NCBI GenBank assembly: GCA_016176605.1
Contig: JACOWW010000003.1
Coordinates: 30,138-94,137 of the forward strand
DNA: 64,000 nt
From: Candidatus Saccharimonadota bacterium
GTDB lineage: Bacteria; Patescibacteriota; Saccharimonadia; Saccharimonadales; UBA10212
Reading direction: 5' to 3'
Translations under genes and position numbers: made by a program
The notes under the pieces: generated by a model
Seen by the model: the letters and a program-made list of their open reading frames with translations, nothing else
Database searches by the model: none
What the model was told of the DNA's origin: nothing
Part shown: positions 24,521-53,751 of the stretch, piece by piece
Numbering within the stretch: the first letter of the stretch is position 1
How the letters are laid out: every line of letters begins with the position of its first letter

Positions 24521-26668
24521 TTAATCGCATGCCCACCTACCAAAGTAAAGCATTACGCCGAAGTTATTAAGCGAGCGTTGCTGCAACGCGCAACCATTAA
24601 CAAATGTAGGTGGGGGTGGGGGTGGGGATGGAGGGGGTGGAGGTGGAGGCGTTGCTGGCCGCCAGGCATCATCGGGCGCAGGTGGAGGAGGCGGGGGTGT
24701 ATAGGTTGGCTGAGGATTATAATTTGTGATTGGTTGGCAATTACCGGGGGAACCTTGCAGACCTTGGGATTCGCATGACGGTTGGTTAGGCTGATTTGTA
24801 TCCGAAGGGTTTGATGCCACGCATTGGCCGGTATCGAGAGTGAACCAATTAGAGTAGCCGCCGCAGCCGCCGGTTGTGGAAACGCACCGGCCATCACTCC
24901 CCCTAGAAAAACCCTGGGCGCAATTGCTGGATGAGATTGGCGTCGATCCAGTGCAATCCCTGACGGAAGCGGAGGCATAACCCCTGTAACTTATATCACT
25001 CAAGGTAGTAACCTTACAGCCTTCTGAATCGTAGTATGTGTTCCAGACGCCGCCTTGGTTGGAGTTAGTACAATCGCCCCACTGTTTTTCGGCATTATAA
25101 ATTGTACAAACGATATCTCCACCGCCTCCGCCGGCGCTAGTGCTACCACTACCACCGCTGGAGCCGGTGCCGCCGGTGCCGCTACCAGAACTGGTCGGAG
25201 CATTGCAGTTAGGTGGAGTTCCGGTGGTGCCAGAGGGGCAAGCCGGTGGCTGACCCGGGCCAGCCACAGCAACGTCTTTTTGGGCGCTGGCTTGACTGGA
25301 ACCTTTCGTACAGGTGATCTTAAATGCGTACGTTTGCGGACCGCTTAAGGCAATTGATTGTTCACTGCCGCCGGCCGGCGCCTTTGCGCCACTCCAGCCG
25401 CCGCTGGCTGGCGTTGTAGTTGCGGCGCAAGAGTCCGGCGAGCCGGTTGTAGTCCACGTTAATGTAACCTTTTCGTTATTGGAAATAGCGTTTTTATCTA
25501 CATTTAAAGTTACGGTGGTGCCGCTAGCGCCAGCCGGAGCTGCTCCAGCTTTAAGGTCCAACTCACAGATTTCACGACTGCTAATGTCAATGAAGACTGG
25601 CTGGTTTATATCTGTGGGCGCTATTAGCCGTTTACAAATTTGGTTGGAACTACGCAAGGCGAATTCCGGTATAGCATTTTCGTCAGGGCTGATGTTGTAG
25701 TCGCGACCAGTAGAAATGCCGCTGGAATCTATCCGCGCCTGCAACCGCTTGACAGCATTACCGGATTTAGCGGTAGCGTCAATTACTGATTGGACATCGA
25801 TGAATTTAAGTACGTTGTTGCTAGAGTCATTAGCCTTTATCTTGACGTTAGTTTGGTTATAAATCGGCGTCAGGCGGACGTAATAATAGTCCGCCGCCGC
25901 CAGGCCGTTGATGATTACGTTACAGTTATAATCGGCCGAGCCTTTAAAGTTACCGGTACTTGGGTTATTCTTGCCGCATTCAATTTTTTGCAAGCCTTCC
26001 GAGCCGTAAGCGACAGTACTTAGCGTGTCATTGGTTTTGGGATTCGGATAAAAGAAATAAGTTTTAGAACCACTGCGGGCGCTATCCAGCGAACCACCTG
26101 TCCCAATTGGGTATAAGCTGACGCGCAGTACCGGCTCGTATTTGTCCAGGCTCCACTTCTTTTCACTGTAGAAAGTTTGGCCGCCTGGCAGTTGGTCAAA
26201 GGTGCGGTCATAACTTTCCCAAGAAAACATGACACTACCGCCACTTACAGACGCCGAGGTCGTCATTTTGATAACTTGCGAGCTTAGCGGCGGCAGTTTT
26301 TGATATACAAGATCAGACGGTGTAGGGTCAATTAATATACAGGTGTACTTGGTATCTTCCGACAGCTTAGCGGCATCTTTTAGCTGCCCGCTGCCAATTA
26401 AGGTATTACAGTCAGTCACGGCTTCGGCCGGGTTTTGCTTGGCATAAGCAATGGCATCGTTGACGGCCGAGCGGGCCGCATAGTTGGCGGCGGCGCTAAT
26501 CGAGCTGGTAGTTGATTGCTGCAGGGAGCGGTTCATCAGCTTGGAAAAACCAATAGCTACTAAACTCATGACAACCACCAAGACTGACACCACGACTATA
26601 GAGGCAATACCGTACTCTTTGTTTTTCACAAAGCCGGACCTCTTAATCCAGTTAAGCATTAGCTTCAT
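24521..26668 (-). CDS. Large PilX-N-like pilus-associated protein with Ig-like, Gly/Ser-rich, Cys-rich and poly-Pro regions
   Basis: N-terminus KEYGIASIVVVSVLVVVMSLVAIGF resembles the PilX N-terminal segment. C-terminus has PPPPPPAP...PPPPPPPSPPPPPP. The ATG at 26668 overlaps the upstream stop (TAATG). Confidence 0.5.
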   Translation of the reverse strand: MKLMLNWIKRSGFVKNKEYGIASIVVVSVLVVVMSLVAIGFSKLMNRSLQQSTTSSISAAANYAARSAVNDAIAYAKQNPAEAVTDCNTLIGSGQLKDAAKLSEDTKYTCILIDPTPSDLVYQKLPPLSSQVIKMTTSASVSGGSVMFSWESYDRTFDQLPGGQTFYSEKKWSLDKYEPVLRVSLYPIGTGGSLDSARSGSKTYFFYPNPKTNDTLSTVAYGSEGLQKIECGKNNPSTGNFKGSADYNCNVIINGLAAADYYYVRLTPIYNQTNVKIKANDSSNNVLKFIDVQSVIDATAKSGNAVKRLQARIDSSGISTGRDYNISPDENAIPEFALRSSNQICKRLIAPTDINQPVFIDISSREICELDLKAGAAPAGASGTTVTLNVDKNAISNNEKVTLTWTTTGSPDSCAATTTPASGGWSGAKAPAGGSEQSIALSGPQTYAFKITCTKGSSQASAQKDVAVAGPGQPPACPSGTTGTPPNCNAPTSSGSGTGGTGSSGGSGSTSAGGGGGDIVCTIYNAEKQWGDCTNSNQGGVWNTYYDSEGCKVTTLSDISYRGYASASVRDCTGSTPISSSNCAQGFSRGSDGRCVSTTGGCGGYSNWFTLDTGQCVASNPSDTNQPNQPSCESQGLQGSPGNCQPITNYNPQPTYTPPPPPPAPDDAWRPATPPPPPPPSPPPPPPTFVNGCALQQRSLNNFGVMLYFGRWACD

Positions 26669-27366
26669 TATAACCCTTTCGAGGCAGTAATGGTCAACTG
26701 AGTTTTTGCACAATACTGGGAGGTAGATAAATTACTGTTGCAGGTAGCTTCCGGGGTTGAGGGGTCATCATCGCCAGTCGCCAGGTCAATACTAGCCGTG
26801 CAAATGCTTTGACAGCCATCGGGGCCAACACTAAAACTATTAAGCCTCATACCATTTCCAAGCAATTCCGTGGGCTTATTGGGCGGAAACTTATTGGGCC
26901 CGTCATAAGGATCCGCACAGCCGCTGCTGCCCGGCACGCTGTCACGCAGCAAGCCGAACTTGTCTGTATCGTTATGGTCTGATAAATTCACCGGGCTATA
27001 AATCATATAAATGTAACGTGCGCTGCCGACACATATATATTTTTTATCGCCTGAAGTTCCGTTAACCACCGGTGTTGACGACGATTGGATGTCCGAGGAA
27101 ACTAAATCCATGATGTTCCTAGCGACTTGTTGGTTCTGGGTCATGTTCACGCCCTTATAAAACAGCCGGCCAATACCCAAAAAAGCCGCCAGCGCAACAA
27201 CTATAACGGTAGAAAAGATGGCTGTTGCCAGCAAAAGTTCAGTTATGGTGAACCCAGCACTTAGCTCCGAGTCGCGCGCAAAGCGCGCTAATATTCGCCG
27301 AGGACGGATAATCTCGGAAGCTAAGTGCTGGGTGAAGCCGTCAGCTTTTTTTTGTATTCCCCTCAT
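26668..27366 (-). CDS. Pseudopilin (class III signal peptide G|FTITE) with an element-derived insertion in the leader
   Basis: AGFTITELLLATAIFSTVIVV. Start taken as MRGIQKK (27366) because it shares the AGCAATAGCATGA start context with the 28712 pilin. The ORF is open to 27426. Confidence 0.6.
   Translation of the reverse strand: MRGIQKKADGFTQHLASEIIRPRRILARFARDSELSAGFTITELLLATAIFSTVIVVALAAFLGIGRLFYKGVNMTQNQQVARNIMDLVSSDIQSSSTPVVNGTSGDKKYICVGSARYIYMIYSPVNLSDHNDTDKFGLLRDSVPGSSGCADPYDGPNKFPPNKPTELLGNGMRLNSFSVGPDGCQSICTASIDLATGDDDPSTPEATCNSNLSTSQYCAKTQLTITASKGL
27251..27332. repeat. Inverted-repeat element (ACCCAGCACTTAGCTCCGAG ... CTCGGAAGCTAAGTGCTGGGT) inside the prepilin leader
   Basis: Arms at 27251-27270 and 27312-27332. 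The same 15-bp termini occur at 38958-38972 and 38992-39006. Confidence 0.8.
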
Positions 27367-27419
27367 GCTATTGCTCATAATAAAGCACTTTTTAGATGTT
27401 TGCACCTGGTTTTTAAAAA

Positions 27420-28712
27420 CTACCACGACCCGCTGAAGCTATTTTGCCAAGCCTTAAGGGCGGCAAAGTCGGTCGAGAAAGCCCCGCCGTCATAATATAT
27501 AGTATTGGTACCGCCGATGTCTGCAGGATAGTAAAGACTATCCATAGGGTAGTTGGTATTTAAGTTCATGCTGGTCGGCATGTTCTGGCGGGGTACGATA
27601 TTAACCGACTTGCCGCCAGTGCCTGGACCATTAAGCCAGGCCTCAAACCAGCCAGTGTTGTCGGGCGCCATGTGCCAACCCATTAGAAAGTCATACCACT
27701 GGTCGCGCTGGAGCGTTGGCGAAACGCCGCCGACCCACGGTGTTCCTGTTGCTCCGAAAGTGTGCTCAATAGAAGCTGAGGGGTTCTTGGCGCAATCGTT
27801 ACTGCCGCGGATAATCAAGCGCCACTGGTTGCTGGTCAGGCCGACATTGAGCGGGGCCGGCCCGGTACAACCACCCGGATTACTCTGGTGGATTTCGGGG
27901 CCGGCGTAGAAATAATCAGTGGAGGTGCTGGCCGGGACACGCAGCGAAACAGCCCGCCAGAAAGTCGAGCCGTTATTCAAGCTGAAATTAGTGTCCGCTG
28001 GAAACCCCAGCAAGTGAATACGCACGTTCTTGGTTTCGCCATAACACTGGACGGACTGGCTGCCGGTAAACTTGCCAGCGTACCGGCCTTCTCTGATAGG
28101 GCTGGTAACAACAGAGACCCGGTCACCGTGACAGCTTGTGTCTTTATATTCGGAAAGGTTGCCTGATTCAAAACTGCCATATCGGACAATTGATCCCGAG
28201 GCTGGTGGTGATGGAGCTGGTCCCGGAGGCGAAGATGGCGCCGGCGAAGACGACGGTAATACTGGCGTGCCCGATCCAGCATAGAAACCTGGCAGTTTGT
28301 AGTAGAGAGTTAGTTTTTCTGGATTAGCAGAGTTAATGGATGTCCAGTTAGCTGTTACGGTGAATAGATTATTGGCGTAGTGGACTATGAGGGAGTACGG
28401 CTGACCGTTGTAGGTTTTACATTCGTTAGAATCTTTGGCCTTAGGGTTACCGTCAGAAAGAATGCAAAAGTCGCCAGAGAAACTCCTATATTTATCTAAA
28501 GACGAGCCGCCGGCGTTTTGGGCATTTATGATGAACTCTACCTGGCTTTGGGCGGAAGCTAAAGCTTGGTTGCGCTTTTCGGCTGAGATACCGGAGCCCA
28601 GGTTGCGGTTAGCTAGAGCGTAGGCGCCGGCTAAAACCAGGCCCAAGATTGTAATACTAAGAAGTACCTCAATGATGGTGTCACCGGATTGGCGGAGACT
28701 AAGTTTCTTCAT
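27420..28712 (-). CDS. Pseudopilin fused to a ConA-like/polysaccharide-lyase-like jelly-roll domain
   Basis: MKKLSLRQSG|DTIIEVLLSITILG prepilin N-terminus, then a Pro-rich linker. The C-terminal ~270 aa (GSFESGN..GRYAGKF..GPEIHQ..WYDF..WFEAWLNG) is motif-level similar to PF14099-type domains. Confidence 0.55.
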   Translation of the reverse strand: MKKLSLRQSGDTIIEVLLSITILGLVLAGAYALANRNLGSGISAEKRNQALASAQSQVEFIINAQNAGGSSLDKYRSFSGDFCILSDGNPKAKDSNECKTYNGQPYSLIVHYANNLFTVTANWTSINSANPEKLTLYYKLPGFYAGSGTPVLPSSSPAPSSPPGPAPSPPASGSIVRYGSFESGNLSEYKDTSCHGDRVSVVTSPIREGRYAGKFTGSQSVQCYGETKNVRIHLLGFPADTNFSLNNGSTFWRAVSLRVPASTSTDYFYAGPEIHQSNPGGCTGPAPLNVGLTSNQWRLIIRGSNDCAKNPSASIEHTFGATGTPWVGGVSPTLQRDQWYDFLMGWHMAPDNTGWFEAWLNGPGTGGKSVNIVPRQNMPTSMNLNTNYPMDSLYYPADIGGTNTIYYDGGAFSTDFAALKAWQNSFSGSW

Positions 28713-28815
28713 GCTATTGCTTATAGAATAAATTATTTTGATTATGAATACCACCTCTGTTTGCAGCTAGAGCTTAATTATTTAGCAATTATCAAAGAAC
28801 AACTTTAGGCACTGT

Positions 28816-29763
28816 TTAAGGGACCGGAGTAATAGTTATGGTGGTGCCGTGCACACTATTGGCGTTAGCCCTGCACGGTTGGTAGATGGGAATGTCGGGA
28901 TGGATGGAACAATGCTTAACAAGCAGATAGTCCACTTGTCGTGTTACGCTCACCCGAAAAGTGTTGGTGACTTCGGTCTGGTTAAGCGGGATGTCGTCGG
29001 TTGGCGGTGTCCGGAAGATAAGAGAGCCGTCGCCGCTTAAGCCTTCAATGAATACTCGTTCGTTAATCTGCTCCGGACGTTTGATGTTAGGAGAAACGCA
29101 ATCTGGCAGCGGCGGGACACCGCAGTGCGATTCATCAAAAGGCGTCACCGTCAATTCGTAGGTGCTAGAGCTATCAGAGTCGCTAGGGTCACAAAAAGCA
29201 ACCAATGGTTTGGGCAAGTCTATTTGATGGATGGTCAGCCCACCCCACCATAACTCTCCGGTTCCGGTCTTCGGCATGTTAACTGTTTCGGGACTGCAAC
29301 TGGGCCCAGGTCCAGGACCGGTATAGGTGCCGGGCAGTCTATAATATAGCTTCAGCTGGTCTTGGTAGCTGGCGGCGCCCGCAGGCGTCCACTGGGCTGT
29401 GACGGTAAATACATTGTTGGCATAATGAACCATTAGGGCATATTGTTGGCTATCGTAGTTCCTACACTCATCATTATCTTTACTTTTAGGCTCTCCCTCA
29501 GCCAGGATACAAAAGTCGCCCGAAAATGTAGTGAACTTTTCTAGAGCTGTATCTCCGGCCTTTTGGGCGTTAATAATGTGTTCTACCTGGGTTTGGGCGG
29601 ACGCTAAGGCCTGGTCGCGCCGTCCCGCTGAGATACCAGAACTTAAGTTACGGTTAGCTAAAGCGTAGGCGCCGGTTAAAACCAGGCCCAGGATGGTGAT
29701 GCTTAACAGGACTTCAATAATAGTGTCGCCACGAGAGCCGGGAGATATCTTAAGCTTTTTCAT
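28816..29763 (-). CDS. Pseudopilin, paralogue of 27420-28712 with an unrelated Cys-rich C-terminal domain
   Basis: MKKLKISPGSRG|DTIIEVLLSITILG. About 70% identity to its neighbour over the first ~140 aa, then no similarity. Confidence 0.6.
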   Translation of the reverse strand: MKKLKISPGSRGDTIIEVLLSITILGLVLTGAYALANRNLSSGISAGRRDQALASAQTQVEHIINAQKAGDTALEKFTTFSGDFCILAEGEPKSKDNDECRNYDSQQYALMVHYANNVFTVTAQWTPAGAASYQDQLKLYYRLPGTYTGPGPGPSCSPETVNMPKTGTGELWWGGLTIHQIDLPKPLVAFCDPSDSDSSSTYELTVTPFDESHCGVPPLPDCVSPNIKRPEQINERVFIEGLSGDGSLIFRTPPTDDIPLNQTEVTNTFRVSVTRQVDYLLVKHCSIHPDIPIYQPCRANANSVHGTTITITPVP

Positions 29764-29765
29764 AT

Positions 29766-30551
29766 CTAGCAATTATCAAAAGTTAATTTTGTACTGACGC
29801 CGTTTCGGCCGGCAATCACGTTAATAAAAGCAGTTTGCTTGTTATCCGGACTGCTAAAACAAATTTTCCAGTCATTGACGGCGCTGTTTTTGTAGCCGCT
29901 TTGTTCTTCAATGTAGTTTTTGACGTTGTTGACCGGATTGACAGAATCACTATTTAATTCATAAGCTTTGGCCAGCAGGGGCTGAGTGTTTACACGGCTA
30001 ACTCTTAAAGGATTACTCGGGTCATAGTAAAGACCGAGCATATCAGTGCGCTTAGCACTATCGCCGTAGCTGGCGGACGTGACTATAGCGCCCCCAGAAG
30101 CAATATTATACGTCTCTGTAAGATCACCGCCAGTTTCGGCAACAGCCGGTGTGGGTTTACTCTGTTCAAAGGTACCAGCCCGCAGGCCCAAAACAGTATG
30201 GATATAAATCTGGTTTTTAGTTGGCACGACTTGCAAGGCTTTGCCCATAATTAAGCATTCAGAACTAGTGCCTTCTTCGTGCACTGGGTCACCAGCGCCA
30301 ATAGCGGTCAGGGTCGGTCTACCGGCTCCCGAAATACTGCACTGGTAATTGTTAGATACCGTAAAAGTTCCGCCGTTAATACTGCTGAGCATAGTCTGAA
30401 TTTTGGAATCGACGTCACGCATGGCTTGCGTGAATTCCGTTTCTCCTCTTTGGCCGTTGATTAATGTAGCAACGCTGACAAGTAGCAGGCCGCTGATGGC
30501 CAAGGCCAACATAGCCTCAACTACCGTATATCCCCTGCTTCCAGACCGCAT
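29766..30551 (-). CDS. Pseudopilin (G|YTVVEAMLAL)
   Basis: Start taken at MRSGSRG (30551). The longer ORF to 30719 has no leader-like logic. Confidence 0.55.
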   Translation of the reverse strand: MRSGSRGYTVVEAMLALAISGLLLVSVATLINGQRGETEFTQAMRDVDSKIQTMLSSINGGTFTVSNNYQCSISGAGRPTLTAIGAGDPVHEEGTSSECLIMGKALQVVPTKNQIYIHTVLGLRAGTFEQSKPTPAVAETGGDLTETYNIASGGAIVTSASYGDSAKRTDMLGLYYDPSNPLRVSRVNTQPLLAKAYELNSDSVNPVNNVKNYIEEQSGYKNSAVNDWKICFSSPDNKQTAFINVIAGRNGVSTKLTFDNC

Positions 30552-30781
30552 TAGCCTGCCAGCAAGCGAAGCTCGCTGCACTGCTAATGCTTCTGGCGCT
30601 GGAGCACGATTTTTGCCTGCGGTGCTCACGCACCGTAACATTTCTACGGCTCGTTCCGCTCCTCGGCGAGAAATCGCACCCAGCATCCAGCTCTGCAACC
30701 AGGCTTGACCATGCCTCATAAGGGAAGTATAGCATAACCGTTATCTGTTAACGGTTATCCGTGGTTAATGGTTAATGGCGT

Positions 30782-31621
30782 CTACGTAAGTAGACGCTGG
30801 TACCAATCCAGCAACGGCTGGCCAAATAATATAACCAGACCGGTTGAGGCTATCAAAAAGGGACCAAAAGGCAGCTTGGAAGCCATTTTTCGCCTTCCGG
30901 AAGCTAGTGCGGGTAATACAAATAATGTGCCTAGCACCGAGGCCAAAAAAATCATCACAAGGCTTTTAGCCGGTGTTGCCAAAAGCGTACCGGTTACCAG
31001 ACCCAGGCGCACGTCGCCAAAACCTATCCACTTCCCGCTCGAAACCAAGTAAATAGCTAGGAACAGGCCGCTGGCCACCAGCCAGCTCAAAGCTAAAAGC
31101 CAAAAGCTGTGAGCTTTATTGTTAGCAAAAAACAAAATGTAGCCGAGCTGACCGACTAATGCAATAAAGAATGTCGGGTATAAAATACGGTTAGGCAAAA
31201 ACATCCATTTAAGGTCATAGACGGCTAGTGCCAACAGGCCGACACTGGCCGCTAGCCAGGTTATAAATAGCAACCACTGGCCATTACTAAAAGACGCGGG
31301 CCAAAAAACATAACTAAATATAAACACCGTGGCGGCCAAAAGCTCAACTAATGGGTATTGTATTGATATCGGGTTGTTACAGTAGCGACATTTACCGCGT
31401 AATAATATCCAGCTTAGTATAGGAACTAGATCGCGGGGTGTTAGTTTGTGCCTGCAGTTTGGGCAGATCGAACGACCATTGAGAATTGAGAAATTATTTT
31501 TTTGTTCTTTGTTTATTGTTCTTTGTTTACTGAGCTCTTGTTGGCGTAAACGCCACACAAGGGCGTTAACAAAGCTCCCAAGGGAAAGCCCTAAAAGGAA
31601 TAAACCAATGAGTATCAGCAT
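30782..31621 (-). CDS. pilD: Prepilin peptidase (A24 family)
   Basis: CPNCRHKL..CRYCNNPISIQYPLVELL zinc-finger region and multiple TM segments. Confidence 0.85.
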   Translation of the reverse strand: MLILIGLFLLGLSLGSFVNALVWRLRQQELSKQRTINKEQKNNFSILNGRSICPNCRHKLTPRDLVPILSWILLRGKCRYCNNPISIQYPLVELLAATVFIFSYVFWPASFSNGQWLLFITWLAASVGLLALAVYDLKWMFLPNRILYPTFFIALVGQLGYILFFANNKAHSFWLLALSWLVASGLFLAIYLVSSGKWIGFGDVRLGLVTGTLLATPAKSLVMIFLASVLGTLFVLPALASGRRKMASKLPFGPFLIASTGLVILFGQPLLDWYQRLLT

Positions 31622-31773
31622 TTCCTTTCAGTATACAGATAGTGAGTAACCAAAAAATACTTAACAAGTCAAGCATTTTCTATTTTTAATGAAAAACGAG
31701 CGGATTTTACCCGCCCGTCTTTGCTTATTACTTTCTTGTCCTGAGCGAAGTCGAAAGATTGCTGTTTGCCAAT

Positions 31774-32340
31774 CTAGCCGTTGTCAACACAAAACCAAGT
31801 ATAGCTTCTCTCCAGACCAATCACGATAGCAAAATCTTTGGCATTCGTCGTCCCGCCGCTACCAGTCTGGAACCCTTCACCACTACACTTTAAGCCTGAA
31901 CCTATATATACCCGGCCAACAGCCCAGGTTAGAGCGCTAGTACTTGTAGTATTATATACATCTACTGGGGATCCAGTGCTGGGGTCGTCGGTATCAATTT
32001 TTGGTGTCCCGTTAACATAACGGTCATACCAACCACGGCAATTGTCTGTGGCGCTAGTACCAGTTCTACAGTTAAAGCCAGGGACAGAACCTGTGGCAGC
32101 TGCAAATGGAAACTTGCCTTGATTGTTAGAAGCAAAGTTTTGCAGTTCAGTACTCAAACGCGTAGCGATGCTTTGGCGTTTAGAATCGCGGGTGTTGCGC
32201 TGCAGCTGCGGCACGGCTATAAATACAATAGTCAAAATCAACCCGGCGATAGCCAAGACGATCAATACTTCAATAATAGTAAAACCGCGAGCCTGTCGAG
32301 TGATAAAGCCTTTGGCTCGGCCCTTTAGTTTATTTATCAT
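31774..32340 (-). CDS. Type IV pilin (probable major pilin)
   Basis: ARG|FTIIEVLIVLAIAGLILTIVF. Strong SD (AGGGGGAAAG) upstream. Confidence 0.7.
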   Translation of the reverse strand: MINKLKGRAKGFITRQARGFTIIEVLIVLAIAGLILTIVFIAVPQLQRNTRDSKRQSIATRLSTELQNFASNNQGKFPFAAATGSVPGFNCRTGTSATDNCRGWYDRYVNGTPKIDTDDPSTGSPVDVYNTTSTSALTWAVGRVYIGSGLKCSGEGFQTGSGGTTNAKDFAIVIGLERSYTWFCVDNG

Positions 32341-32425
32341 TAGTTCTTTCCCCCTTTATGGTGTGCTCGTCGTAGCGTTAATGCTTACATAGTAGTAGTT
32401 CGCGGAAGCTTATGCAATATAATTC

Positions 32426-33646
32426 TTAATACTTTGGTATTAGGTTCTTACCAGCTAGTGAATATATCGGCAGCAACACAGCGGCAACCATTATCAAAGC
32501 GATAATACCGACAATAATCATCATGGCCGGTTCTACGACGGTTGATATAGAACGAATTTGGTTATCTACCTCTTTTTCATAATAGTCAGCCAGTTTGGCT
32601 AACATCTTATCCAGCGACCCTGATTGCTCGCCGATGTTGATCATGTTAGGCACCAGCTCTAAGAAACTGTTATCGCCGCTCAGGCTTTGCGATAAGCTTT
32701 TTCCGCCTTTCACCTGGTCTGACACCCGTTTGATCGAGGCCTCGATGTGGACATTATCCACGGCCTCGGCGGTAGTAGCCAGCATTTTTATCATCGGCAC
32801 GCCGCTGGCTACAAGCGTCGAAGAAATGCGCGAAAAACGCGCCATATATAGCTTCATGTATAGCGGCCCGATGCCCCAGGCCGTCATTTTGAAATGGTCA
32901 AGCCATTGCTTACCCTCTGGACTACGCGCCCAGCGCCAGCCAAAAAAACCTACACTCAGCAGGACTAGTAGTATCGCCCACCAAAAATTTAAAATAAAGT
33001 CCGATAATCCCAAAAGCCCGCGGGTCAGGACCGGCAGCTTGGCCCCCGGCAAACCGCTGTAGAGATTTTGCACCTGTGGCAAAACGGAGGTTAGCATAAA
33101 TACCACGACCCCGACTAGCACTATCATAACTACCGTGGGGTAAATCAAGGCACCGCGGATTTTCGACATTATTTCCGAGTCTTTTTCTTGCTGGTCGGCC
33201 AGGCGGGCCAAAGATATATCGAGCGTTCCCGAAGCTTCACCAGCAGCGATCAAGTTTGTATAGACATTATCAAAAGCTTTAGGATGCGCACTCAACGCGT
33301 CTGCCAGACTGGAACCAGTTTCTACCTCGCTTATAATCTTAGCTATAATTTCTTTTAAAGCTTTATTGCTCGTTTGGCCTTTGACCGTATTTAGGCTTTG
33401 CACCAAAGGCAGGCCAGCGTTCATTAAAGTTGATAGTTGGCGCGAGAATACCACCCGGTCTTTGCTAGGAATACGCTTAAAAATGCCCCGCCCGCCCTGT
33501 TCGTCCTTGGGCTTTATTTCCAGCGGCGCCAGGCCGCGCTCGTTAAGCAGGCGGGCAGCTGTCTTGTCGTTGTCGGCCTCTACCTCAGCTGTAATCTTTT
33601 TGCCGGTTTTTAGGTCACGGGCAGTATATATAAAAGTCTGCATCAC
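32426..33646 (-). CDS. pilC: Type IV pilus platform protein (GspF/PilC family)
   Basis: Two T2SS-F repeats (FSRQLSTLMNAGLPL.., FSRISSTLVASGVPM..) and 3 TM segments. Confidence 0.85.
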   Translation of the reverse strand: MMQTFIYTARDLKTGKKITAEVEADNDKTAARLLNERGLAPLEIKPKDEQGGRGIFKRIPSKDRVVFSRQLSTLMNAGLPLVQSLNTVKGQTSNKALKEIIAKIISEVETGSSLADALSAHPKAFDNVYTNLIAAGEASGTLDISLARLADQQEKDSEIMSKIRGALIYPTVVMIVLVGVVVFMLTSVLPQVQNLYSGLPGAKLPVLTRGLLGLSDFILNFWWAILLVLLSVGFFGWRWARSPEGKQWLDHFKMTAWGIGPLYMKLYMARFSRISSTLVASGVPMIKMLATTAEAVDNVHIEASIKRVSDQVKGGKSLSQSLSGDNSFLELVPNMINIGEQSGSLDKMLAKLADYYEKEVDNQIRSISTVVEPAMMIIVGIIALIMVAAVLLPIYSLAGKNLIPKY

Positions 33647-33743
33647 ACAACCTCTCTTCGAGAGCCTGAGGGCTCCTCAGAGCCTCGAACGGCCGGTTGC
33701 AGAGTTAAGAGATATGAGTTATGAGATATGATGCTCGAGCTGT

Positions 33744-33772
33744 CTTGACTCTTGACTCTTGACTCTTGACTC
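33744..33772. repeat. 7-nt tandem array (CTTGACT)x4
   Basis: cttgactcttgactcttgactcttgactc. The adjacent 33706-33735 carries ATATGAG/TTATGAG heptads. Confidence 0.9.
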
Positions 33773-33791
33773 ATAAAAATGCTTCGCATTT

Positions 33792-34859
33792 TTAGCTCCG
33801 CATCAATCTGTCTAACTCTTCGACATCGACGGCATAGTTACGGGCTTCGTCATAACTGATAACGCCGGAATGTATAAGGTTGACCAGTGTGCGGTCCATG
33901 CTTTGCATACCGTGTTGCGCGCCGGTTTGAATGACGGCTTCCAGTTGATAATTCTTGTCTTCACGGATAATATTGCGCACCGCAGGCGTAGCAATCAATA
34001 TTTCAGTAGCAGCTACCCGTCCGCCGCCAAGGGCTGGAATTAGACGCTGCGAGCATATAGCCATTAAGATATTACCCAGCTGCGACCTGACTTGCGGCTG
34101 TTGGTGCGGCGGAAAGACATCGACCATACGGTCTATACTTTGGGCGGCGCTGTTGGTGTGCAGCGTCGCCAGCACCAAATGCCCAGTTTCGGCAATAGTA
34201 ATCGCCGCGGCAATTGTTTCCAGATCACGCATCTCGCCGATTAGCACGACGTCAGGGTCTTCGCGCAGGGCTGAACGCAGGGCCGCCGAGAAACTATAAG
34301 TGTCATAGTGCACCTCGCGCTGGACAACTAACGACCGCTTCGATTGATGGGTGTATTCAATCGGGTCCTCAACGGTAATAATGTGCGAGGCTTTTTCGCT
34401 GTTAATCTTATCGATCAGGGCAGCCAGTGTGGTAGATTTTCCCGAACCGGTCGGGCCGGTTATTAGCACCAAGCCGCGCGGATACTGGGCAAATTTATTA
34501 ATGATTTTCGGTAAGCCCAACTGCTCTATGGTCTTGATTTCGTTAGCAATCAAGCGCAGGGCCGCGGCTAAGTTTCCCCGTTCGTGGAAAGCATTGACCC
34601 TAAAGCGGCCCAAATCCCCAAAGGCAAAACTGAAATCAAACTCCTTATCGCGCAAAAGTATCTGTTTTTGGTCTTCGTCCAAAAGGGCGAAAACCAGAGT
34701 CTCGACCACTTGTTCGGTAAGGCGCGTCTGGGTTTGGCTTGGCATTAAATTACCATCGACGCGCAACATCGGTGGTTGGCCGACCTGCAAATGCAAATCA
34801 GAGGCTTTGCGCTTGACGACTTCGTCAAGCAGGACTTCAATTTTTGGCTGCGTTGGCAC
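33792..34859 (-). CDS. pilT: Twitching-motility retraction ATPase
   Basis: GPTGSGKSTTLAALI, VEDPIEY, ALREDPDVVLIGEMRD, GHLVLATLHT. GTG start with a GGAGG SD. Confidence 0.9.
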   Translation of the reverse strand: MPTQPKIEVLLDEVVKRKASDLHLQVGQPPMLRVDGNLMPSQTQTRLTEQVVETLVFALLDEDQKQILLRDKEFDFSFAFGDLGRFRVNAFHERGNLAAALRLIANEIKTIEQLGLPKIINKFAQYPRGLVLITGPTGSGKSTTLAALIDKINSEKASHIITVEDPIEYTHQSKRSLVVQREVHYDTYSFSAALRSALREDPDVVLIGEMRDLETIAAAITIAETGHLVLATLHTNSAAQSIDRMVDVFPPHQQPQVRSQLGNILMAICSQRLIPALGGGRVAATEILIATPAVRNIIREDKNYQLEAVIQTGAQHGMQSMDRTLVNLIHSGVISYDEARNYAVDVEELDRLMRS

Positions 34860-34895
34860 TTACACGCCTCCTGCCGTCGGCTCAATTAGCGATTT

Positions 34896-35000
34896 ACAAT
34901 TTTCAATTTTCAATGATTTATTATTGATCGTCGACCATTTGATAAATGAGAAATGAGAAATTAGTGGTAAATGGTAAATGGTAAATGGTAAATGGAATAA
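34896..35000. repeat. Heptad arrays flanking a central AT-rich core (CAATTTT x2.5 ... AAATGAG x2.5, TGGTAAA x4)
   Basis: Read directly in the pilB-pilT spacer. Confidence 0.85.
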
Positions 35001-35018
35001 TGTGATCATTATTTCTCC

Positions 35019-36824
35019 TTAGGCGTCCATCGAGGCGACACGGTTAATTTCCAGGAGTGTGGTCATGGCCGCCAAAGCTTTCAAATAGCCGTCCTGGCGC
35101 ATGGTTACCATGCCTTGGCTAATGGCTACCTGCTGGATCTGCGAGCTTGTAGCGCGTTTTAGAATTGTGTTCTGTATCCCCTCAGTAACTTCAAAGACCT
35201 CATAAAGTCCCATGCGGCCTTTGAAACCAGACTTGTTATCGGGCGTCGGTTTACCCTTGACCAAAGTATAAGCGTTTTGACCAGCCAGAGGCAAGTTTCT
35301 ATATCCTAGGTCCCGGCCCACTGCCTCGACTTCTTGCGGATTCTTGGGCAGTAAGTGTCCAATATTTTCCTGTATGGCTTTAGTTTCACTTGGCGTGGAG
35401 CTATAGGTCTCGCCACCTGGGACAACTCGCCTTGCCAGGCGCTGACCAATAACCGTGTGTACTGTGCTGGCGATTAGAAACGGCTCGACGGCCATGTCCA
35501 AAAGGCGCGGTAAAATACCGGCCGCGGTGTTAGTGTGCAGAGTCGAAAACACCAGATGGCCAGTCAGTGCGGCCTGGACCGCCAGGTTAGCCGTTTCCTT
35601 ATCGCGGATTTCACCAACCATAACCACATCGGGGTCTTGGCGCAGTATCGAACGCAGGCCAGTGGCAAAGGTTAGGCCAACGTCAGGGTTGACCTGGATT
35701 TGGTTAACCCCCTCAATCTTATACTCAACCGGGTCTTCCAGTGTCACTATATTAATACTGTCAGTCTTAATAGCCTGGATCATGGCGTACATTGATGTGG
35801 TCTTACCCGATCCGGTCGGGCCGGATGTCAATATCATGCCATAAGGCATTTGCAGCGCTTTTTTAACCAGTCTTAGCGCCCGGCCGTTATAGCCCATCTC
35901 TTCAAGTTGTAAACTGGTATCTGACTTATCAAGCAGCCTAATAACTACCTGTTCACCCCAGATAACAGGGCTAATAGTAATACGCAGGTCAATGTTACGG
36001 CCATCAGCTTTTACCGTAAACTGGCCATCTTGCGGTATGCGATGTTCGTCGATTTTCAAATTGGATAAAATTTTTATACGGCTTATTAGCGGCGCCTCGG
36101 CGCTTTTCGGCAGTTTCAACACTTCTTTTAATACACCGTCTACGCGGCAACGGATTTTGAGCTCATGCTCCAAAGCCTCAATGTGGACGTCACTGGCATT
36201 ATTCTTGGCCGCGTACTCTAAAATGGCGGACAATGCCTGGCTAATCGGCGAATCTTGGACGATCGTCTGGACTTTGCCTTCTTTATCAACTGCTGCCGGC
36301 GCCCCTTTAACGGCCCCCAAATTTTTATTTTCCTCTAGAGCGTTGGCGTTTAGCATTGAAGTCAGTCCACCGACAAGACCGCTGTTACCGTATTGCTCGA
36401 TCACTTTCCTAATACCAGCCTCGCTGGCGGCGTAGACCTTAAGCGGCCGGCCAATACGTTTACTCAAAAAATCTACCGCTTGGACATTGTCGGCGTCGAG
36501 CATAGCTACGACCAGCTTATTTTGCATCTCGCCTATTGGTACGGCCATATAATGTTCGGCCAGGTCCTGGGGCAGTAGGCCCAGTATTTTGGGGTCTATC
36601 CTGGTGTTAGTTAAGCTGACATAAGGCACGTTAGAAACGCCGGCCAGTATCTTTGTTAAGCGTTCGTCATCTAGTAAGCCTTGCTCCAGTAGCAGGGTTA
36701 TCAACGGTTTTTTAGTGGCCAGTGCTTTCTTTTTGAAATCCTCAATCTGGACCTCGGTCAAAATACCCTCGTTAATTAACGAATCTTCTACTTTCTCCTG
36801 GCTTGTCGCTGATAAAACATTCAT
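35019..36824 (-). CDS. pilB: Type IV pilus assembly ATPase (GspE/PilB family)
   Basis: T2SS-E N-domain. GPTGSGKTTSMYAMI, LEDPVEY, ILRQDPDVVMVGEIRD, GHLVFSTLHT. Confidence 0.9.
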   Translation of the reverse strand: MNVLSATSQEKVEDSLINEGILTEVQIEDFKKKALATKKPLITLLLEQGLLDDERLTKILAGVSNVPYVSLTNTRIDPKILGLLPQDLAEHYMAVPIGEMQNKLVVAMLDADNVQAVDFLSKRIGRPLKVYAASEAGIRKVIEQYGNSGLVGGLTSMLNANALEENKNLGAVKGAPAAVDKEGKVQTIVQDSPISQALSAILEYAAKNNASDVHIEALEHELKIRCRVDGVLKEVLKLPKSAEAPLISRIKILSNLKIDEHRIPQDGQFTVKADGRNIDLRITISPVIWGEQVVIRLLDKSDTSLQLEEMGYNGRALRLVKKALQMPYGMILTSGPTGSGKTTSMYAMIQAIKTDSINIVTLEDPVEYKIEGVNQIQVNPDVGLTFATGLRSILRQDPDVVMVGEIRDKETANLAVQAALTGHLVFSTLHTNTAAGILPRLLDMAVEPFLIASTVHTVIGQRLARRVVPGGETYSSTPSETKAIQENIGHLLPKNPQEVEAVGRDLGYRNLPLAGQNAYTLVKGKPTPDNKSGFKGRMGLYEVFEVTEGIQNTILKRATSSQIQQVAISQGMVTMRQDGYLKALAAMTTLLEINRVASMDA

Positions 36825-36924
36825 CCCGTTAGAGCCTCTGAGTACTTACTGCTAGATTGAGCTACGATAAATACGCAAATTATATTTATCACGAAATTAG
36901 CACCTGTAAAGGCTCTAACGGGAT
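36823..36924 (-). repeat. Start-abutting inverted-repeat cassette (ATCCCGTTAGAGCC ... GGCTCTAACGGGAT)
   Basis: Arms at 36823-36836 and 36911-36924. The proximal arm overlaps the pilB ATG. The interior contains TTTACA..TATAAT-like hexamers. Confidence 0.8.
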
Positions 36925-36949
36925 TCACCGCAGGCCTCCCGGGAGACCG

Positions 36950-37080
36950 TTAGCCATTATCCATTTACCATTTTCTGTGCATTTACCATTAGCCATTAAC
37001 CATTTGTTAACAGTAAACGGGTAACGCATGGTGAAGGGTGAATGGTGAAGGGTGAACGTTTTTTGAGCATTGAGCATTTG
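36950..37080. repeat. Composite spacer element: CCATTNN heptads, then GTTAACAGTAAACGGGTAACGCATGG, then (GGTGAAG/GGTGAAT)x4, then (GAGCATT)x2
   Basis: Read directly. The core GTAAACGGRTAACGCRTGGTGAAGGGTGAA recurs at 39004-39035, with a shorter form at 4097-4125. Confidence 0.85.
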
Positions 37081-37088
37081 TTCACCAC

Positions 37089-37379
37089 CTATTGGAACGG
37101 GTTGGTATTTTTAGTGTCACCTATCTGGATGGGCTGGGTGGCGTCAAGGGCGCCAGGGTTTAGAAACGACTGGTAAGATGATTCATTCTTTATATCAGGC
37201 AAGCTTATGTTTATTTTATCGACTGTTGGTACTTTCGTGGCGCGTTTTTCGGGTGAATTAAACAAGGCACCGGCAACTAAGTATGAAATTATCGCCGCGA
37301 CGCTGGCAATGAAGCCTAATTTTAATATCTCGCCTTTTTTCATCACACTTCGCCTTTTAGCCTTCGTAGCCAAGGCCAC
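37089..37379 (-). CDS. Small membrane-anchored protein in the pilus locus (function unknown; start possibly at 37343)
   Basis: One TM segment (LKLGFIASVAAIISYLVAGALF). Lies between pilO-like and pilB. Confidence 0.4.
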   Translation of the reverse strand: MALATKAKRRSVMKKGEILKLGFIASVAAIISYLVAGALFNSPEKRATKVPTVDKINISLPDIKNESSYQSFLNPGALDATQPIQIGDTKNTNPFQ

Positions 37380-37456
37380 CTCGGCGAAGTAAGCCCAGCT
37401 ACGAGTGATTTTGGCAATCCTATAATCTCCCAGTGCTCTAGTGCGTAGTGCCTCAT

Positions 37457-38859: not shown

Positions 38860-38880
38860 ACACGCCTCCTTCGGAGGTAT

Positions 38881-39052
38881 TAACCATTTTCCATTTACTA
38901 TTTACCATACATTTACCATACATTTACCATTAGCCATTAGCCATATGTTAACGGTAAACCCAGCACTTAGCTTAAGTATCTTAGAGACTCGAGCTAAGTG
39001 CTGGGTAAACGGATAACGCGTGGTGAAGGGTGAAGGGTGAAGGGTGAAGAGT
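38881..39052. repeat. Composite spacer element: CCATTTN/TTTACCA heptads, central 15-bp inverted repeat, (GGTGAAG)x4
   Basis: Central arms ACCCAGCACTTAGCT (38958-38972) and AGCTAAGTGCTGGGT (38992-39006). GGTGAAG array at 39021-39050. Confidence 0.85.
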
Positions 39053-39069
39053 AATGATGCAGTCATGAC

Positions 39070-53523: not shown

Positions 53524-53751
53524 AGAGAGCCTCCTTTGGCTTAAACCCGTACGCCTTAAAGCCACGAGTTGAGTTAATCCTTCATACAACATACACTAAA
53601 AGTTAACAGAGGTCAACCTAGTAGTAGACTTTCGCGTGGCTTTGCATAGTATCCCGACAATGTCAGGATAGTCACGAAAGTTCACTACTGGGTCAACAAA
53701 TTGCAGCATTAGCATTTTTGTGGTATTATTTACGATAGTCCTAGAGCAGAG

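What the first reader, a model, noticed from the sequence alone, without database searches (positions are those of the whole stretch)
27246..27338. Inverted-repeat element inserted in a prepilin leader, duplicating the G|FT cleavage motif
The pseudopilin at 26668-27366 has an unusually long leader: MRGIQKKADGFTQHLASEIIRPRRILARFARDSELSAG|FTITELL. The extra ~25 aa coincide exactly with an element bounded by ACCCAGCACTTAGCTCCGAG (27251-27270) and CTCGGAAGCTAAGTGCTGGGT (27312-27332). Both arms are flanked by GGTGAA, so the protein contains DGFT before the element and AGFT after it. Removing the element would restore a normal short leader, MRGIQKKADG|FTITE. The same 15-bp termini bound a non-coding copy at 38958-39006. 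The consequence could be two alternative peptidase sites, or a regulated or defective pilin.
Basis: partly seen in the sequence, partly recalled or inferred. Interest (0 to 1): 0.65.

Follow-up and report, generated by a model that had tools for sequence, protein, structure and literature searches.

The report
Mobile hairpin inside pilin leader peptide
A small palindromic mobile DNA element has inserted in frame exactly at the signal-peptide cleavage site of a type IV pilin gene of a Saccharibacterium and rebuilds that site behind itself, so its 28 extra amino acids should be cut off with the leader; related copies sit at the same codon of many other pilin genes, which suggests selfish DNA that hides in, or homes to, a discarded part of a protein.

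Summary
An 80-nt hairpin element (27253-27332, minus strand) with perfect termini and a 4-bp target duplication (TTCA) lies inside the leader of a minor pilin in a complete type IV pilus cluster. An 89%-identical orthologue has the clean empty site. The element belongs to a family found so far only in Saccharibacteria: cores of 47-83 nt, termini CCCAGCACTTAG/CTAAGTGCTGGG, covarying stems and usually TTYA-type duplications. The window holds three copies. Every coding copy found (more than 20, in non-orthologous pilins and in a small "GF-IPM" membrane protein) sits at the same G|F codon junction. All are in frame, in either orientation, and all encode a net-positive peptide ending in ...LSAG, so a full G|F site is regenerated downstream. 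Non-coding copies are mostly not multiples of three and carry stop codons. The pilin stays under strong purifying selection (dN/dS 0.05). Only the second G|FT matches the prepilin motif, and no start codon lies downstream. The best reading is a MITE-like element whose translation product is removed by the prepilin peptidase. Repeated occupation of the same site argues for a target preference. The transposase, the cleavage itself and the targeting mechanism were not shown. I found no description of this in the literature searched.

The parts
27253..27332 (-). Element core, 80 nt: CCCAGCACTTAG...CTAAGTGCTGGG. It has a 12-bp terminal stem, a second stem TCCGAG/CTCGGA, an inner hairpin TATCCG..CGAATA and an extra GCGCGC-TTT-GCGCGC hairpin. 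It is translated as (T)QHLASEIIRPRRILARFARDSELSAG.
   Evidence: 64.7 bits, E 5.5e-17
27333..27336 (-). Upstream copy of the 4-bp target-site duplication TTCA (Phe11 codon plus the first base of Thr12). It is part of the now non-functional first GFT.
27249..27252 (-). Downstream copy of the duplication TTCA (Phe39 codon plus the first base of Thr40). This is the +1 Phe of the predicted mature pilin.
27247..27264 (-). Regenerated cleavage site L-S-A-G|F-T. L, S, A and G(-1) are encoded by the element's last 12 nt, and F-T by the duplicated target. Cleavage is predicted between 27253 and 27252.
   Evidence: (TIGR02532 matches residues 41-63 only)
27337..27366 (-). Original short leader MRGIQKKADG. 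An alternative upstream ATG lies at 27378.
   Evidence: the L008 orthologue starts at the equivalent ATG
26668..27366 (-). Host gene: a minor type IV pilin (232 aa including the insert). Intact and under purifying selection.
30782..31621 (-). Prepilin peptidase (PilD; A24_N_bact plus Peptidase_A24 domains) in the same cluster. It is the enzyme expected to remove the extended leader.
38959..39005 (.). Short (47-nt) family member with the same termini, flanked by TAAA/TAAA (38955-38958, 39006-39009). It lies in the pilM-pilN spacer.
   Evidence: 40 bits
38860..39069 (-). A 210-nt unit that carries the short copy between inverted arrays of TTYACC-type heptamers. pilM and pilN abut in the syntenic cluster of UBA6824, so the whole unit is an insertion.
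53617..53692 (-). Third, diverged family member (76 nt). Its termini CCCAGTAGTGAA.../...TCTACTACTAGG covary, it has the inner hairpin TATCCTGAC/GTCGGGATA, and its duplication is TTGA/TTGA. It lies upstream of rpsF.

Best explanation
The feature is a non-autonomous, hairpin-forming mobile element (MITE-like) of a family found so far only in Candidatus Saccharibacteria. It inserted at the TTCA that spans the Phe(+1) and Thr(+2) codons of a minor pilin gene and duplicated those four bases. Three properties make the insertion harmless. Core plus duplication is 84 nt, so the frame is kept. The frame used has no stop codon. The last nine bases of the element read Ser-Ala-Gly, so element end plus duplicated target rebuild a full ...SAG|FTITE prepilin site downstream. 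The old GFT and 26 further, net-positive residues become part of a 38-aa leader. The cluster's own prepilin peptidase is expected to remove that leader at the second site, leaving the mature pilin unchanged. The insertion is therefore close to neutral, and the gene stays functional. The same codon junction is occupied again and again, in both orientations and by different subfamilies, in unrelated pilins and in a small GF-IPM membrane protein. This indicates that the element prefers this site, in addition to selection removing out-of-frame or misplaced insertions. Shown: the insertion, the target duplication, the empty sites, the family, the in-frame restriction and purifying selection on the host gene. 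Inferred: translation through the element, cleavage at the second site, target preference and the enzyme that moves the element.
For: Empty versus filled sites with a 4-bp duplication are seen in two different genes: window versus L008 and L005 versus L047. In the syntenic cluster L045, the pilM-pilN unit is absent.

Family: 4 genome loci, all Saccharibacteria MAGs, and 31 metagenome loci. 21 distinct copies have a perfect 4/4 flanking repeat and 6 more have 3/4.

Hairpin with covariation: 95% of cells are paired, with 41 double-sided changes against 15.3 in shuffles (0 of 500 shuffles reach it) and at most 8 in slid controls.

All coding copies are at G|F and in frame, in both orientations. 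Only 4 of 14 long non-coding copies are 3n, and most have stops in that frame.

All 21 insert peptides are net positive, +1 to +7.

The upstream pseudo-site decays in some copies (GS in L006, DF in L035, GL in P0039), while the downstream G|F is intact in every copy.

For the mature pilin, dN/dS = 0.05 at dS = 1.1 between two element-bearing alleles.

The TIGR02532 prepilin motif matches only residues 41-63. It rises from 15.4 to 16.8 bits (cut-off 16.3) when the element is deleted in silico.

PilD and the whole pilus machinery are in the same cluster.

Recurrence:
- The orthologous pilin carries elements of 71, 80 and 83 nt, in opposite orientations, on scattered branches with empty relatives between them.
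- In the small-protein family there are four filled/empty close pairs, and at least 28 representatives read are empty.
- The window and L010 elements differ at 10% of positions, against 58% at synonymous sites of the same gene.
- In the two unbiased DNA scans, about 10 coding copies (all at G|F) stand against about 15 non-coding copies.
Against: No transposase or autonomous partner with these termini was found in the window (Pfam on the ORFs of 120 aa or more) or in about 300 kb of fetched loci. The copy number seen is low. Cleavage by PilD at the second site is untested, and a 38-aa leader is longer than usual for type IVa pilins. Non-coding insertion sites do not share the GG that precedes TTYA in coding sites, so a sequence-based target preference is not directly visible. 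Stems covary across the family, which a purely selfish dsDNA terminal repeat does not require. Whether the empty L008 allele reflects no insertion or a precise excision could not be resolved: informative sites split 4: 2: 4.
Confidence: 0.75

Rival explanations
1. Passive survivor only. The element inserts at loosely defined T-rich 4-mers anywhere, and coding copies are seen only at G|F because this is the one place where an in-frame insertion is harmless. No target preference is needed.
For: Non-coding duplications vary (CTTA, TCAG, TAAG, TTGA, TTG, TTTT), and no GG precedes them. The 3n and open-frame restriction on coding copies shows that a strong selective filter exists. In a short leader, the Phe codon is usually the only TTYA available.
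Against: G|F sites make up roughly 1e-5 of the positions in a genome of about 1 Mb, while intergenic DNA is about 10% (my estimate). Yet the unbiased scans give about 10 coding against about 15 non-coding copies. The same site was filled independently several times in each of two gene families. No in-frame copy was seen in any other protein, although the second frame of the termini (NPALS...AKCWV) is also open.
Confidence: 0.2
2. Exapted functional module. The hairpin (as RNA or DNA) or the extended basic leader has been recruited by type IV pilus genes, for example to control pilin translation or mRNA stability, or as a protein-binding site, and selection maintains it.
For: Copies cluster in pilus loci: two in this cluster; three within 4 kb in L017; one 30 nt upstream of the orthologous pilin in L045. 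Stems covary and the terminal 12 bp are nearly invariant. The window and L010 copies are far less diverged than synonymous sites. The hairpin is very stable: -57 kcal/mol for the 151-nt context, z = -4.8.
Against: The distribution is patchy, with empty close relatives. Both orientations occur. The changes between the window and L010 break pairs rather than compensate. Copies also lie upstream of unrelated genes such as rpsF and rsmH. The interior peptide sequence is not conserved. Local hopping could explain the clustering.
Confidence: 0.12
3. Ancient long leader. The GFTQHL...LSAG segment is an ancestral part of this pilin family, inherited vertically and lost many times.
For: Distant orthologues (36-51% identity) carry it at the same position.
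Against: The same element occurs in non-orthologous pilins, in an unrelated small protein and in intergenic DNA with target duplications. Orientation and length differ between orthologues. The 12-nt termini are identical although the host proteins are only 36-42% identical. Most orthologues, including the closest, have short leaders.
Confidence: 0.03
4. Damaged or alternatively processed pilin. The insertion inactivates the gene, or the peptidase uses the first GFT, or both sites.
For: The first site keeps G-F-T. The full-length protein scores just below the TIGR02532 cut-off.
Against: dN/dS is 0.05 over dS 1.1 in alleles that both carry the element. The first GFT is followed by QHLASEIIRPRR..., which has no hydrophobic helix and no Glu at +5, and the motif model does not match there. 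In other copies the upstream site has mutated (GS, DF, GL) while the downstream one never has.
Confidence: 0.04

Closest known systems
Rickettsia palindromic elements (RPE)
   Same: Short palindromic selfish repeats that insert in frame into protein-coding genes and are translated as extra peptide segments (review PMC10969869).
   Different: RPEs are about 100-150 bp and are scattered over dozens of unrelated genes, at positions tolerated in the folded protein. Here the cores are 47-83 nt. Coding copies are confined to one codon junction (G|F of prepilin-type N-termini). The element rebuilds a protease site, so its peptide should be removed rather than kept. No sequence relationship was tested.
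Bacterial MITEs in general (Correia/CREE, ERIC, RUP, BOX, Nezha)
   Same: Small size, terminal inverted repeats, target-site duplication, no transposase gene, presence/absence polymorphism, and frequent location in 5' untranslated regions.
   Different: No cognate insertion sequence is known. The whole element is one covarying hairpin rather than two terminal repeats around a loop region. The copy number seen is low. The coding-site specificity is extreme.
REP/BIME elements mobilised by RAYT (IS200/IS605-type) transposases
   Same: Hairpin-forming repeats whose structure rather than sequence is conserved. A single-strand hairpin mechanism would explain the covariation.
   Different: REPs are 20-40 nt, carry a conserved GTAG, are extragenic and have no target duplication. 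No RAYT-like gene is present in the window.
Integron attC sites
   Same: Imperfect palindromes of 57-141 nt that are conserved in structure, recombined as folded single strands by a tyrosine recombinase, and inserted next to a G|TT motif. This comparison rests on my own knowledge.
   Different: The RYYYAAC/GTTRRRY core sites are absent, there is no cassette ORF, and there is no integron integrase. The only tyrosine recombinase in the window is a syntenic Xer-like gene.
Inteins and self-splicing introns (functional analogy only)
   Same: Selfish insertions in genes that avoid harming the host because they are removed from the product.
   Different: Removal here would depend on a host protease and on the host protein's own leader processing, not on an activity of the element. 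There is no homology.
Long leaders of type IVb pilins
   Same: Prepilin peptidases process leaders of about 15-30 residues in type IVb systems (my own knowledge), so a 38-residue leader is not out of reach.
   Different: Those leaders are native and family-wide. This one was created by an insertion in a type IVa-like cluster.

Membership tests
MITE (miniature inverted-repeat transposable element) | Small, with no transposase ORF | tested here: met
   Cores are 47-83 nt. The only reading frame through them is the host's.
MITE (miniature inverted-repeat transposable element) | Terminal inverted repeats | tested here: met
   The 12-15-nt termini are perfect in 40+ copies, and a second subfamily (CCCAGTAGT...) has compensating changes.
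MITE (miniature inverted-repeat transposable element) | Target-site duplication of fixed length | tested here: met
   21 distinct copies have a perfect 4/4 direct repeat and 6 have 3/4. A few fit 3 or 5 bp better.
MITE (miniature inverted-repeat transposable element) | Empty sites in relatives (mobility) | tested here: met
   L008 versus window; L047 versus L005; L045 versus the window pilM-pilN spacer.
MITE (miniature inverted-repeat transposable element) | Dispersed multiple copies | tested here: met
   Three copies in 64 kb of the window, three in L017 and two in one 340-kb contig (L014, L016). Whole-genome counts were not obtainable.
MITE (miniature inverted-repeat transposable element) | Autonomous insertion sequence with the same termini | tested here: inconclusive
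   None was found in the window (Pfam). There are no unpaired termini in any fetched locus. Public collections could not be scanned for long elements.
Rickettsia palindromic elements | In-frame insertion in ORFs, read through as protein | tested here: met
   All coding copies are 3n and free of stops, while non-coding copies mostly are not. Translation itself is inferred.
Rickettsia palindromic elements | Insertion in many unrelated genes | tested here: not met
   Coding copies occur only at G|F of pilins and of one small membrane-protein family.
Rickettsia palindromic elements | Sequence homology to RPE families | not tested
   No RPE library was available. Rfam shows no match.
REP/BIME (RAYT-mobilised) | 20-40-nt palindrome with a conserved GTAG head, extragenic, no target duplication | tested here: not met
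   The sequences read directly show longer elements, no GTAG, intragenic copies and 4-bp duplications.
Integron attC | RYYYAAC ... GTTRRRY core sites and an adjacent integron integrase | tested here: not met
   The termini are CCCAGCACTTAG/CTAAGTGCTGGG. Only a Xer-like recombinase is present, at 10634-11575, and it is syntenic in L045.
Type IV prepilin (class III signal peptide), host gene | G(-1), F(+1), E(+5), followed by about 20 hydrophobic residues | tested here: met
   Met at the second site (SAG|FTITELLLATAIFSTVIVVALAAF) and not at the first (DG|FTQHLASEIIRPRR).
Type IV prepilin (class III signal peptide), host gene | Match to the curated prepilin N-terminal domain model | tested here: inconclusive
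   TIGR02532 gives 15.4 bits (cut-off 16.3) at residues 41-63 of the native protein, and 16.8 bits after in-silico removal of the element. Pfam N_methyl gives no hit at E < 0.01.
Type IV prepilin (class III signal peptide), host gene | Linked prepilin peptidase and pilus machinery | tested here: met
   pilM, pilN, a probable pilO (no Pfam hit), pilB, pilT, pilC, a major pilin, pilD and five minor pilins lie at 24521-40107.
Type IV prepilin (class III signal peptide), host gene | Cleavage and N-methylation by PilD | not testable with these tools
   Needs proteomics or an enzyme assay.

The most novel reading that the evidence does not exclude
The element is a site-preferring mobile hairpin that homes to the codons of prepilin-type (class III) signal-peptide cleavage sites. 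It carries the -3 to -1 residues (SAG) of that site in its own terminus. Every insertion therefore recreates the protease site, and the host's prepilin peptidase erases the element from the protein. This would be a protein-level counterpart of an intron or intein, with leader peptides as a safe harbour. A corollary is that the widespread 36-41-aa 'NQxG-FIPMIIM' proteins of Saccharibacteria, the element's second recurrent host, would be unrecognised prepilin-peptidase substrates.
Probability: 0.4. Interest if true: 0.85.

Novelty: new variant of a known kind. Interest (0 to 1): 0.7.

Why it matters
In-frame palindromic insertions are known from Rickettsia and a few other bacteria, but those stay in the mature protein. 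Here the insertion lands where the cell throws the peptide away, and it rebuilds the cut site. That is a new way for selfish DNA to be harmless in very compact genomes.

It also has practical consequences:
- Pilin finders and signal-peptide predictors will miss or mis-start such genes. One gene call in a related contig starts inside the element.
- Leader length in Saccharibacteria pilins is not a reliable class marker.
- The element marks G|F sites that are probably processed, which points to a new small-protein substrate family.
- Type IV pili are central to the episymbiotic lifestyle and to the natural transformation of Saccharibacteria, so a repeat family concentrated in pilus loci may affect their expression or recombination.

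Tried and rejected
- **Rfam.** Gathering thresholds on the whole window and permissive E-values on both element regions gave only tRNAs and chance-level hits.
- **Peptide-profile search of the 5.8-billion-protein set.** It returned only five small proteins and missed known element-bearing pilins, so it could not serve as a census.
- **Viral contigs.** No copy found.
- **Autonomous element.** No transposase in the window and no unpaired termini in any locus.
- **'SAG' leaders as excision footprints.** Rejected. P0013's MKRDSNLSAG is a full element with an internal ATG chosen by the gene caller. P0007 uses TCAGCTGGG, not the element's AGTGCTGGG.
- **Short copy tied to pilM-pilN.** Rejected. The same unit lies between other gene pairs elsewhere.
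- **Rooting window/L010/L008 to tell gain from precise excision.** Unresolved.
- **Host-versus-element phylogeny in the small-protein locus.** Only suggestive incongruence.
- **Literature.** No paper links Saccharibacteria or the candidate phyla radiation to MITEs, or prepilin leaders to transposable elements.

Full report
**1. The observation**

The 15-mer ACCCAGCACTTAGCT occurs exactly four times in the window, as two perfect inverted pairs: 27252-27266/27319-27333 and 38958-38972/38992-39006. On the minus strand the first pair lies in an ORF that reads MRGIQKKADG FT QHLASEIIRPRRILARFARDSELSAG FTITELLLATAIF.... Between Met1 (27366) and Gly38 there is no in-frame ATG, GTG or TTG, so the segment must be translated for the pilin to be made.

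**2. Genomic setting**

The minus strand from 40107 to 24521 carries a complete type IV pilus cluster:
- pilM, pilN and a probable pilO (the latter has no Pfam hit);
- pilB, pilT and pilC;
- a major pilin;
- the prepilin peptidase pilD (30782-31621);
- five minor pilins, of which the host gene (26668-27366) is the fourth.

Named protein hits and all four genome hits are Candidatus Saccharibacteria. The cluster is syntenic with that of MAG UBA6824 (L045).

**3. It is an insertion**

The 89%-identical orthologue P0003 (locus L008) reads ...GCC GGC GGC TTCA CT ATA ACT GAG (MSGIQKEAGG|FTITE). The window reads ...GAC GGC TTCA [80 nt] TTCA CC ATA ACT GAA. The difference is exactly the core CCCAGCACTTAG...CTAAGTGCTGGG plus one copy of TTCA, which is a classic filled/empty pair with a 4-bp target duplication. 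The 90%-identical P0002 (L010) and the 98%-identical P0001 carry the same element.

**4. It belongs to a family**

An exact scan for the two termini found 4 loci among 185,579 species-representative genomes, all Saccharibacteria. It found 31 loci in metagenomes and none in viral contigs. Cores are 47, 67-74, 80 or 83 nt.

When oriented by their interior, 24 long copies align as one hairpin:
- a 12-bp, nearly invariant terminal stem;
- a 7-bp second stem;
- an inner hairpin (TATCCGCC/GGCGGATA);
- a one-sided spacer.

Pairing holds in 95% of cells, with 41 double-sided changes against 15.3 in shuffles (0 of 500 shuffles reach it) and at most 8 in slid controls.

A covariance model finds a third, diverged copy in the window at 53617-53692. 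Its termini CCCAGTAGTGAA.../...CTACTACTAGG covary, its duplication is TTGA, and it lies upstream of rpsF. A sister copy lies in L034. Flanking 4-bp direct repeats are perfect in 21 distinct copies and 3/4 in six more. They are mostly TTTA/TTCA, but also CTTA, TCAG, TAAG, TTGA and TTTT. No Rfam family matches.

**5. Where coding copies sit**

Every coding copy lies at one codon junction, between a Gly codon and Phe-(Thr/Ile):
- nine or more orthologues of this pilin: L001, L002, L003, L009, L010, L044, P0026, P0027, P0029;
- four other pilins: L016, two in L017 (one a PilA-like major pilin carrying the 47-nt form), and L037;
- a small membrane protein next to dnaJ and a GGDEF gene: L004-L007, L019, L035, P0036-P0040.

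All are in frame. They occur in both orientations relative to the gene. Because the termini are palindromic, both orientations read (T)QHL...LSAG. All 21 peptides examined are net positive, +1 to +7, as expected for a cytoplasmic prepilin leader.

By contrast, only 4 of 14 long non-coding copies have core plus duplication divisible by three. The commonest non-coding length is 70 nt, and most have stops in that frame. So being 3n and open is a filter on coding copies, not a family trait. This argues that the element is translated rather than spliced out.

**6. Which G|F is used**

The curated prepilin N-terminal model TIGR02532 matches only residues 41-63, the second site. It scores 15.4 bits in the native protein and 16.8 bits (cut-off 16.3) after in-silico deletion of the element. 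The first GFT is followed by a basic, non-hydrophobic stretch without Glu at +5. In other hosts the upstream pseudo-site has drifted (GS in L006, DF in L035, GL in P0039), whereas the downstream G|F is intact in every copy.

Several empty orthologues end their native leader in SAG (P0007, P0012, P0015, P0031, P0033). The element's terminal AGT GCT GGG therefore supplies a native-like -3 to -1. Cleavage by PilD at Gly38|Phe39 is thus the expected outcome, but this is inferred.

**7. The gene is alive**

Between the window and L010, both with the element, the mature part has dS = 1.11, dN = 0.056 and dN/dS = 0.05. The pseudogene reading is rejected.

**8. Recurrence and the case for a site preference**

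- On a tree of the mature pilin domains, element-bearing sequences fall on scattered branches with empty relatives between them. They carry different lengths and orientations.
- In the small-protein family, an exhaustive profile search found only about five representatives with an element-type insert, while 28 of the 29 further sequences read are empty, 36-89-aa proteins. Four filled ones have close empty relatives. One pair was checked at DNA level: L047 CAG GTT GGG TTTA TACCC against L005 ...GGT TTTA [83 nt] TTTA TTCCC.
- The window and L010 elements differ at 8 of 80 positions (0 of 24 in the termini), against 58% at synonymous sites of the same gene. Those eight changes break pairs rather than compensate. 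That fits copies younger than the host split, or turnover at the site, better than selection on the structure.
- In the two unbiased DNA scans, about 10 distinct coding copies (all at G|F) stand against about 15 non-coding ones. G|F sites are about 1e-5 of genome positions and intergenic DNA about 10% (my estimate), so a selective filter alone seems insufficient.

I therefore favour a real preference for this site. However, non-coding sites show no GG before the duplication, and I could not identify the enzyme.

**9. What moves it is unknown**

The ORFs of 120 aa or more in the window were scanned against Pfam, and none is a transposase. The only recombinase is a Xer-like tyrosine recombinase (10634-11575) that is syntenic in L045. 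No locus holds an unpaired terminus. A CC-starting terminal repeat with a 4-bp duplication recalls IS1380-type elements, but that is memory, not a test. Palindromes flanked by short direct repeats are known to excise precisely by slippage (established for Tn5/Tn10). The empty L008 allele could therefore be a loss, and the three-way comparison with outgroups is unresolved at 4: 2: 4 informative sites.

**10. The non-coding copy**

The 47-nt copy at 38959-39005 (duplication TAAA) sits in a 210-nt spacer between pilM and pilN. In UBA6824 these two genes abut, separated only by the stop codon and one base, so the whole spacer is an insertion. It consists of four TTCACC(C) heptamers, the short hairpin, and an inverted array of GGTAAAT/GGCTAAT-type repeats that ends in a Shine-Dalgarno hairpin. 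The same composite unit, always with the short hairpin at ...CCGTT(T/A)A|, lies between unrelated co-directional genes in at least four other contig families.

**11. Comparison with known systems**

The closest analogues are the Rickettsia palindromic elements and other MITEs that create in-frame fusions (PMC10969869). This family meets the MITE criteria that could be tested, except that no autonomous partner is known. It differs from RPEs in being confined to one processing site and in rebuilding that site. REP/RAYT and integron attC criteria are not met. Searches of the held literature found nothing that links MITEs to Saccharibacteria or to prepilin leaders.

**12. Verdict**

The feature is real and is an insertion. 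It is a new variant of a known kind: an in-frame palindromic mobile element. Its unusual property is repeated occupation and regeneration of the prepilin cleavage site, which makes it probably invisible in the mature protein. Interest is 0.7. The main open points are the targeting mechanism, the mobilising enzyme and direct proof of cleavage.

Noticed in passing
window 30531-30703 (minus strand): A second, unrelated repeat of about 173 nt (CCTGGTTGCAGAGCTGGATGCTGGG ... GGCAGGCTAATGCGGTCTGGAAGCAGGGGA) lies directly 5' of the G|YTVVE site of another minor pilin (29766-30719). It is open in frame from an upstream ATG. About 80%-identical DNA sits directly 5' of G|FTIIE in a non-orthologous pilin (L042, P0010), and a more diverged version lies in L043 (P0014). 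The UBA6824 orthologue has a 10-aa leader (MKWARGFGSG|YT). Pilin leaders seem to collect more than one kind of insertion.
   Followed up: partly
window 38860-39069: A 210-nt composite unit lies between pilM and pilN: four TTCACC(C) heptamers, a 47-nt hairpin, an inverted array of GGTAAAT/GGCTAAT repeats and a Shine-Dalgarno hairpin. It is absent from the syntenic UBA6824 cluster and recurs between unrelated gene pairs (L018, L023, L025, L030). The heptamers resemble the TTYACC target of the coding insertions.
   Followed up: partly
window 53617-53692: A diverged family member with covarying termini (CCCAGTAGTGAA.../...CTACTACTAGG) and TTGA duplication lies in the divergent spacer upstream of rpsF. 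The exact-terminus scans therefore undercount the family.
   Followed up: partly
L004-L007, L019, L035, L047; proteins P0043-P0071: A widespread 36-41-aa Saccharibacteria protein, M..NQxG-FIPMIIML...W.VY.RV, is encoded next to dnaJ and a GGDEF gene. Its N-terminus looks like a prepilin signal without Glu5. It is the element's second recurrent host and may be a prepilin-peptidase substrate. It matches no curated prepilin model.
   Followed up: partly
L017 3040-3086, 3241-3310, 6942-7012: Three family members lie within 4 kb of one pilus cluster: the 47-nt form in the major-pilin leader, a 70-nt intergenic copy whose flanks extend the palindrome (TCAA/TTGA) instead of repeating, and a 71-nt copy in another pilin leader.
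   Followed up: partly
L045 9901-9970: In UBA6824 the orthologous pilin has an empty leader (MIQKRSAG|FT). A full 70-nt element with compensated termini (CCCAGCACCTAG/CTAGGTGCTGGG) and TAAG duplication lies 30 nt upstream of its start codon.
   Followed up: partly
L044 300-440: An element-bearing pilin in which the gene caller started at an ATG inside the element (MKRDSNLSAG|FT). A tandem AAGAGCC/AAGAGCT heptamer array lies just upstream.
   Followed up: no
L009 262-300: After a diverged element there is a further 24-nt duplication (TTTACC ATTCGACACGCTTATGGT TTTACC), which gives a third GFT. It may be the remnant of another small palindrome (ACCAT...ATGGT).
   Followed up: no
L015, L022, L024, L031, L036, L041: Repeats of 54-63 nt share the same 12-nt terminal stem but have an unrelated interior. 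All except L024 share the interior start AGAG(G/A)A.. and a conserved flank (CTCCGCATCC), and some are followed by a T-run. They are probably a different repeat, possibly from other organisms.
   Followed up: no
window 30745-30775 (minus strand): ATTAACC ATTAACC heptamers and a perfect 10-bp inverted repeat ATAACCGTTA/TAACGGTTAT lie between pilD and the next pilin. They resemble the flanks (GGATAACGGTAAA) of the short hairpin.
   Followed up: no
L026 8189-8259, L038 1091-1164, L020 661-730: Non-coding copies often lie a few codons upstream of a start codon, for example in front of an rsmH-like gene in L026. This suggests possible effects on expression.
   Followed up: no
window 27420-28754: The neighbouring minor pilin carries a C-terminal polysaccharide-lyase domain (PF14099, E 5e-17). 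This is a modular pilin with a possible enzymatic tip function.
   Followed up: no
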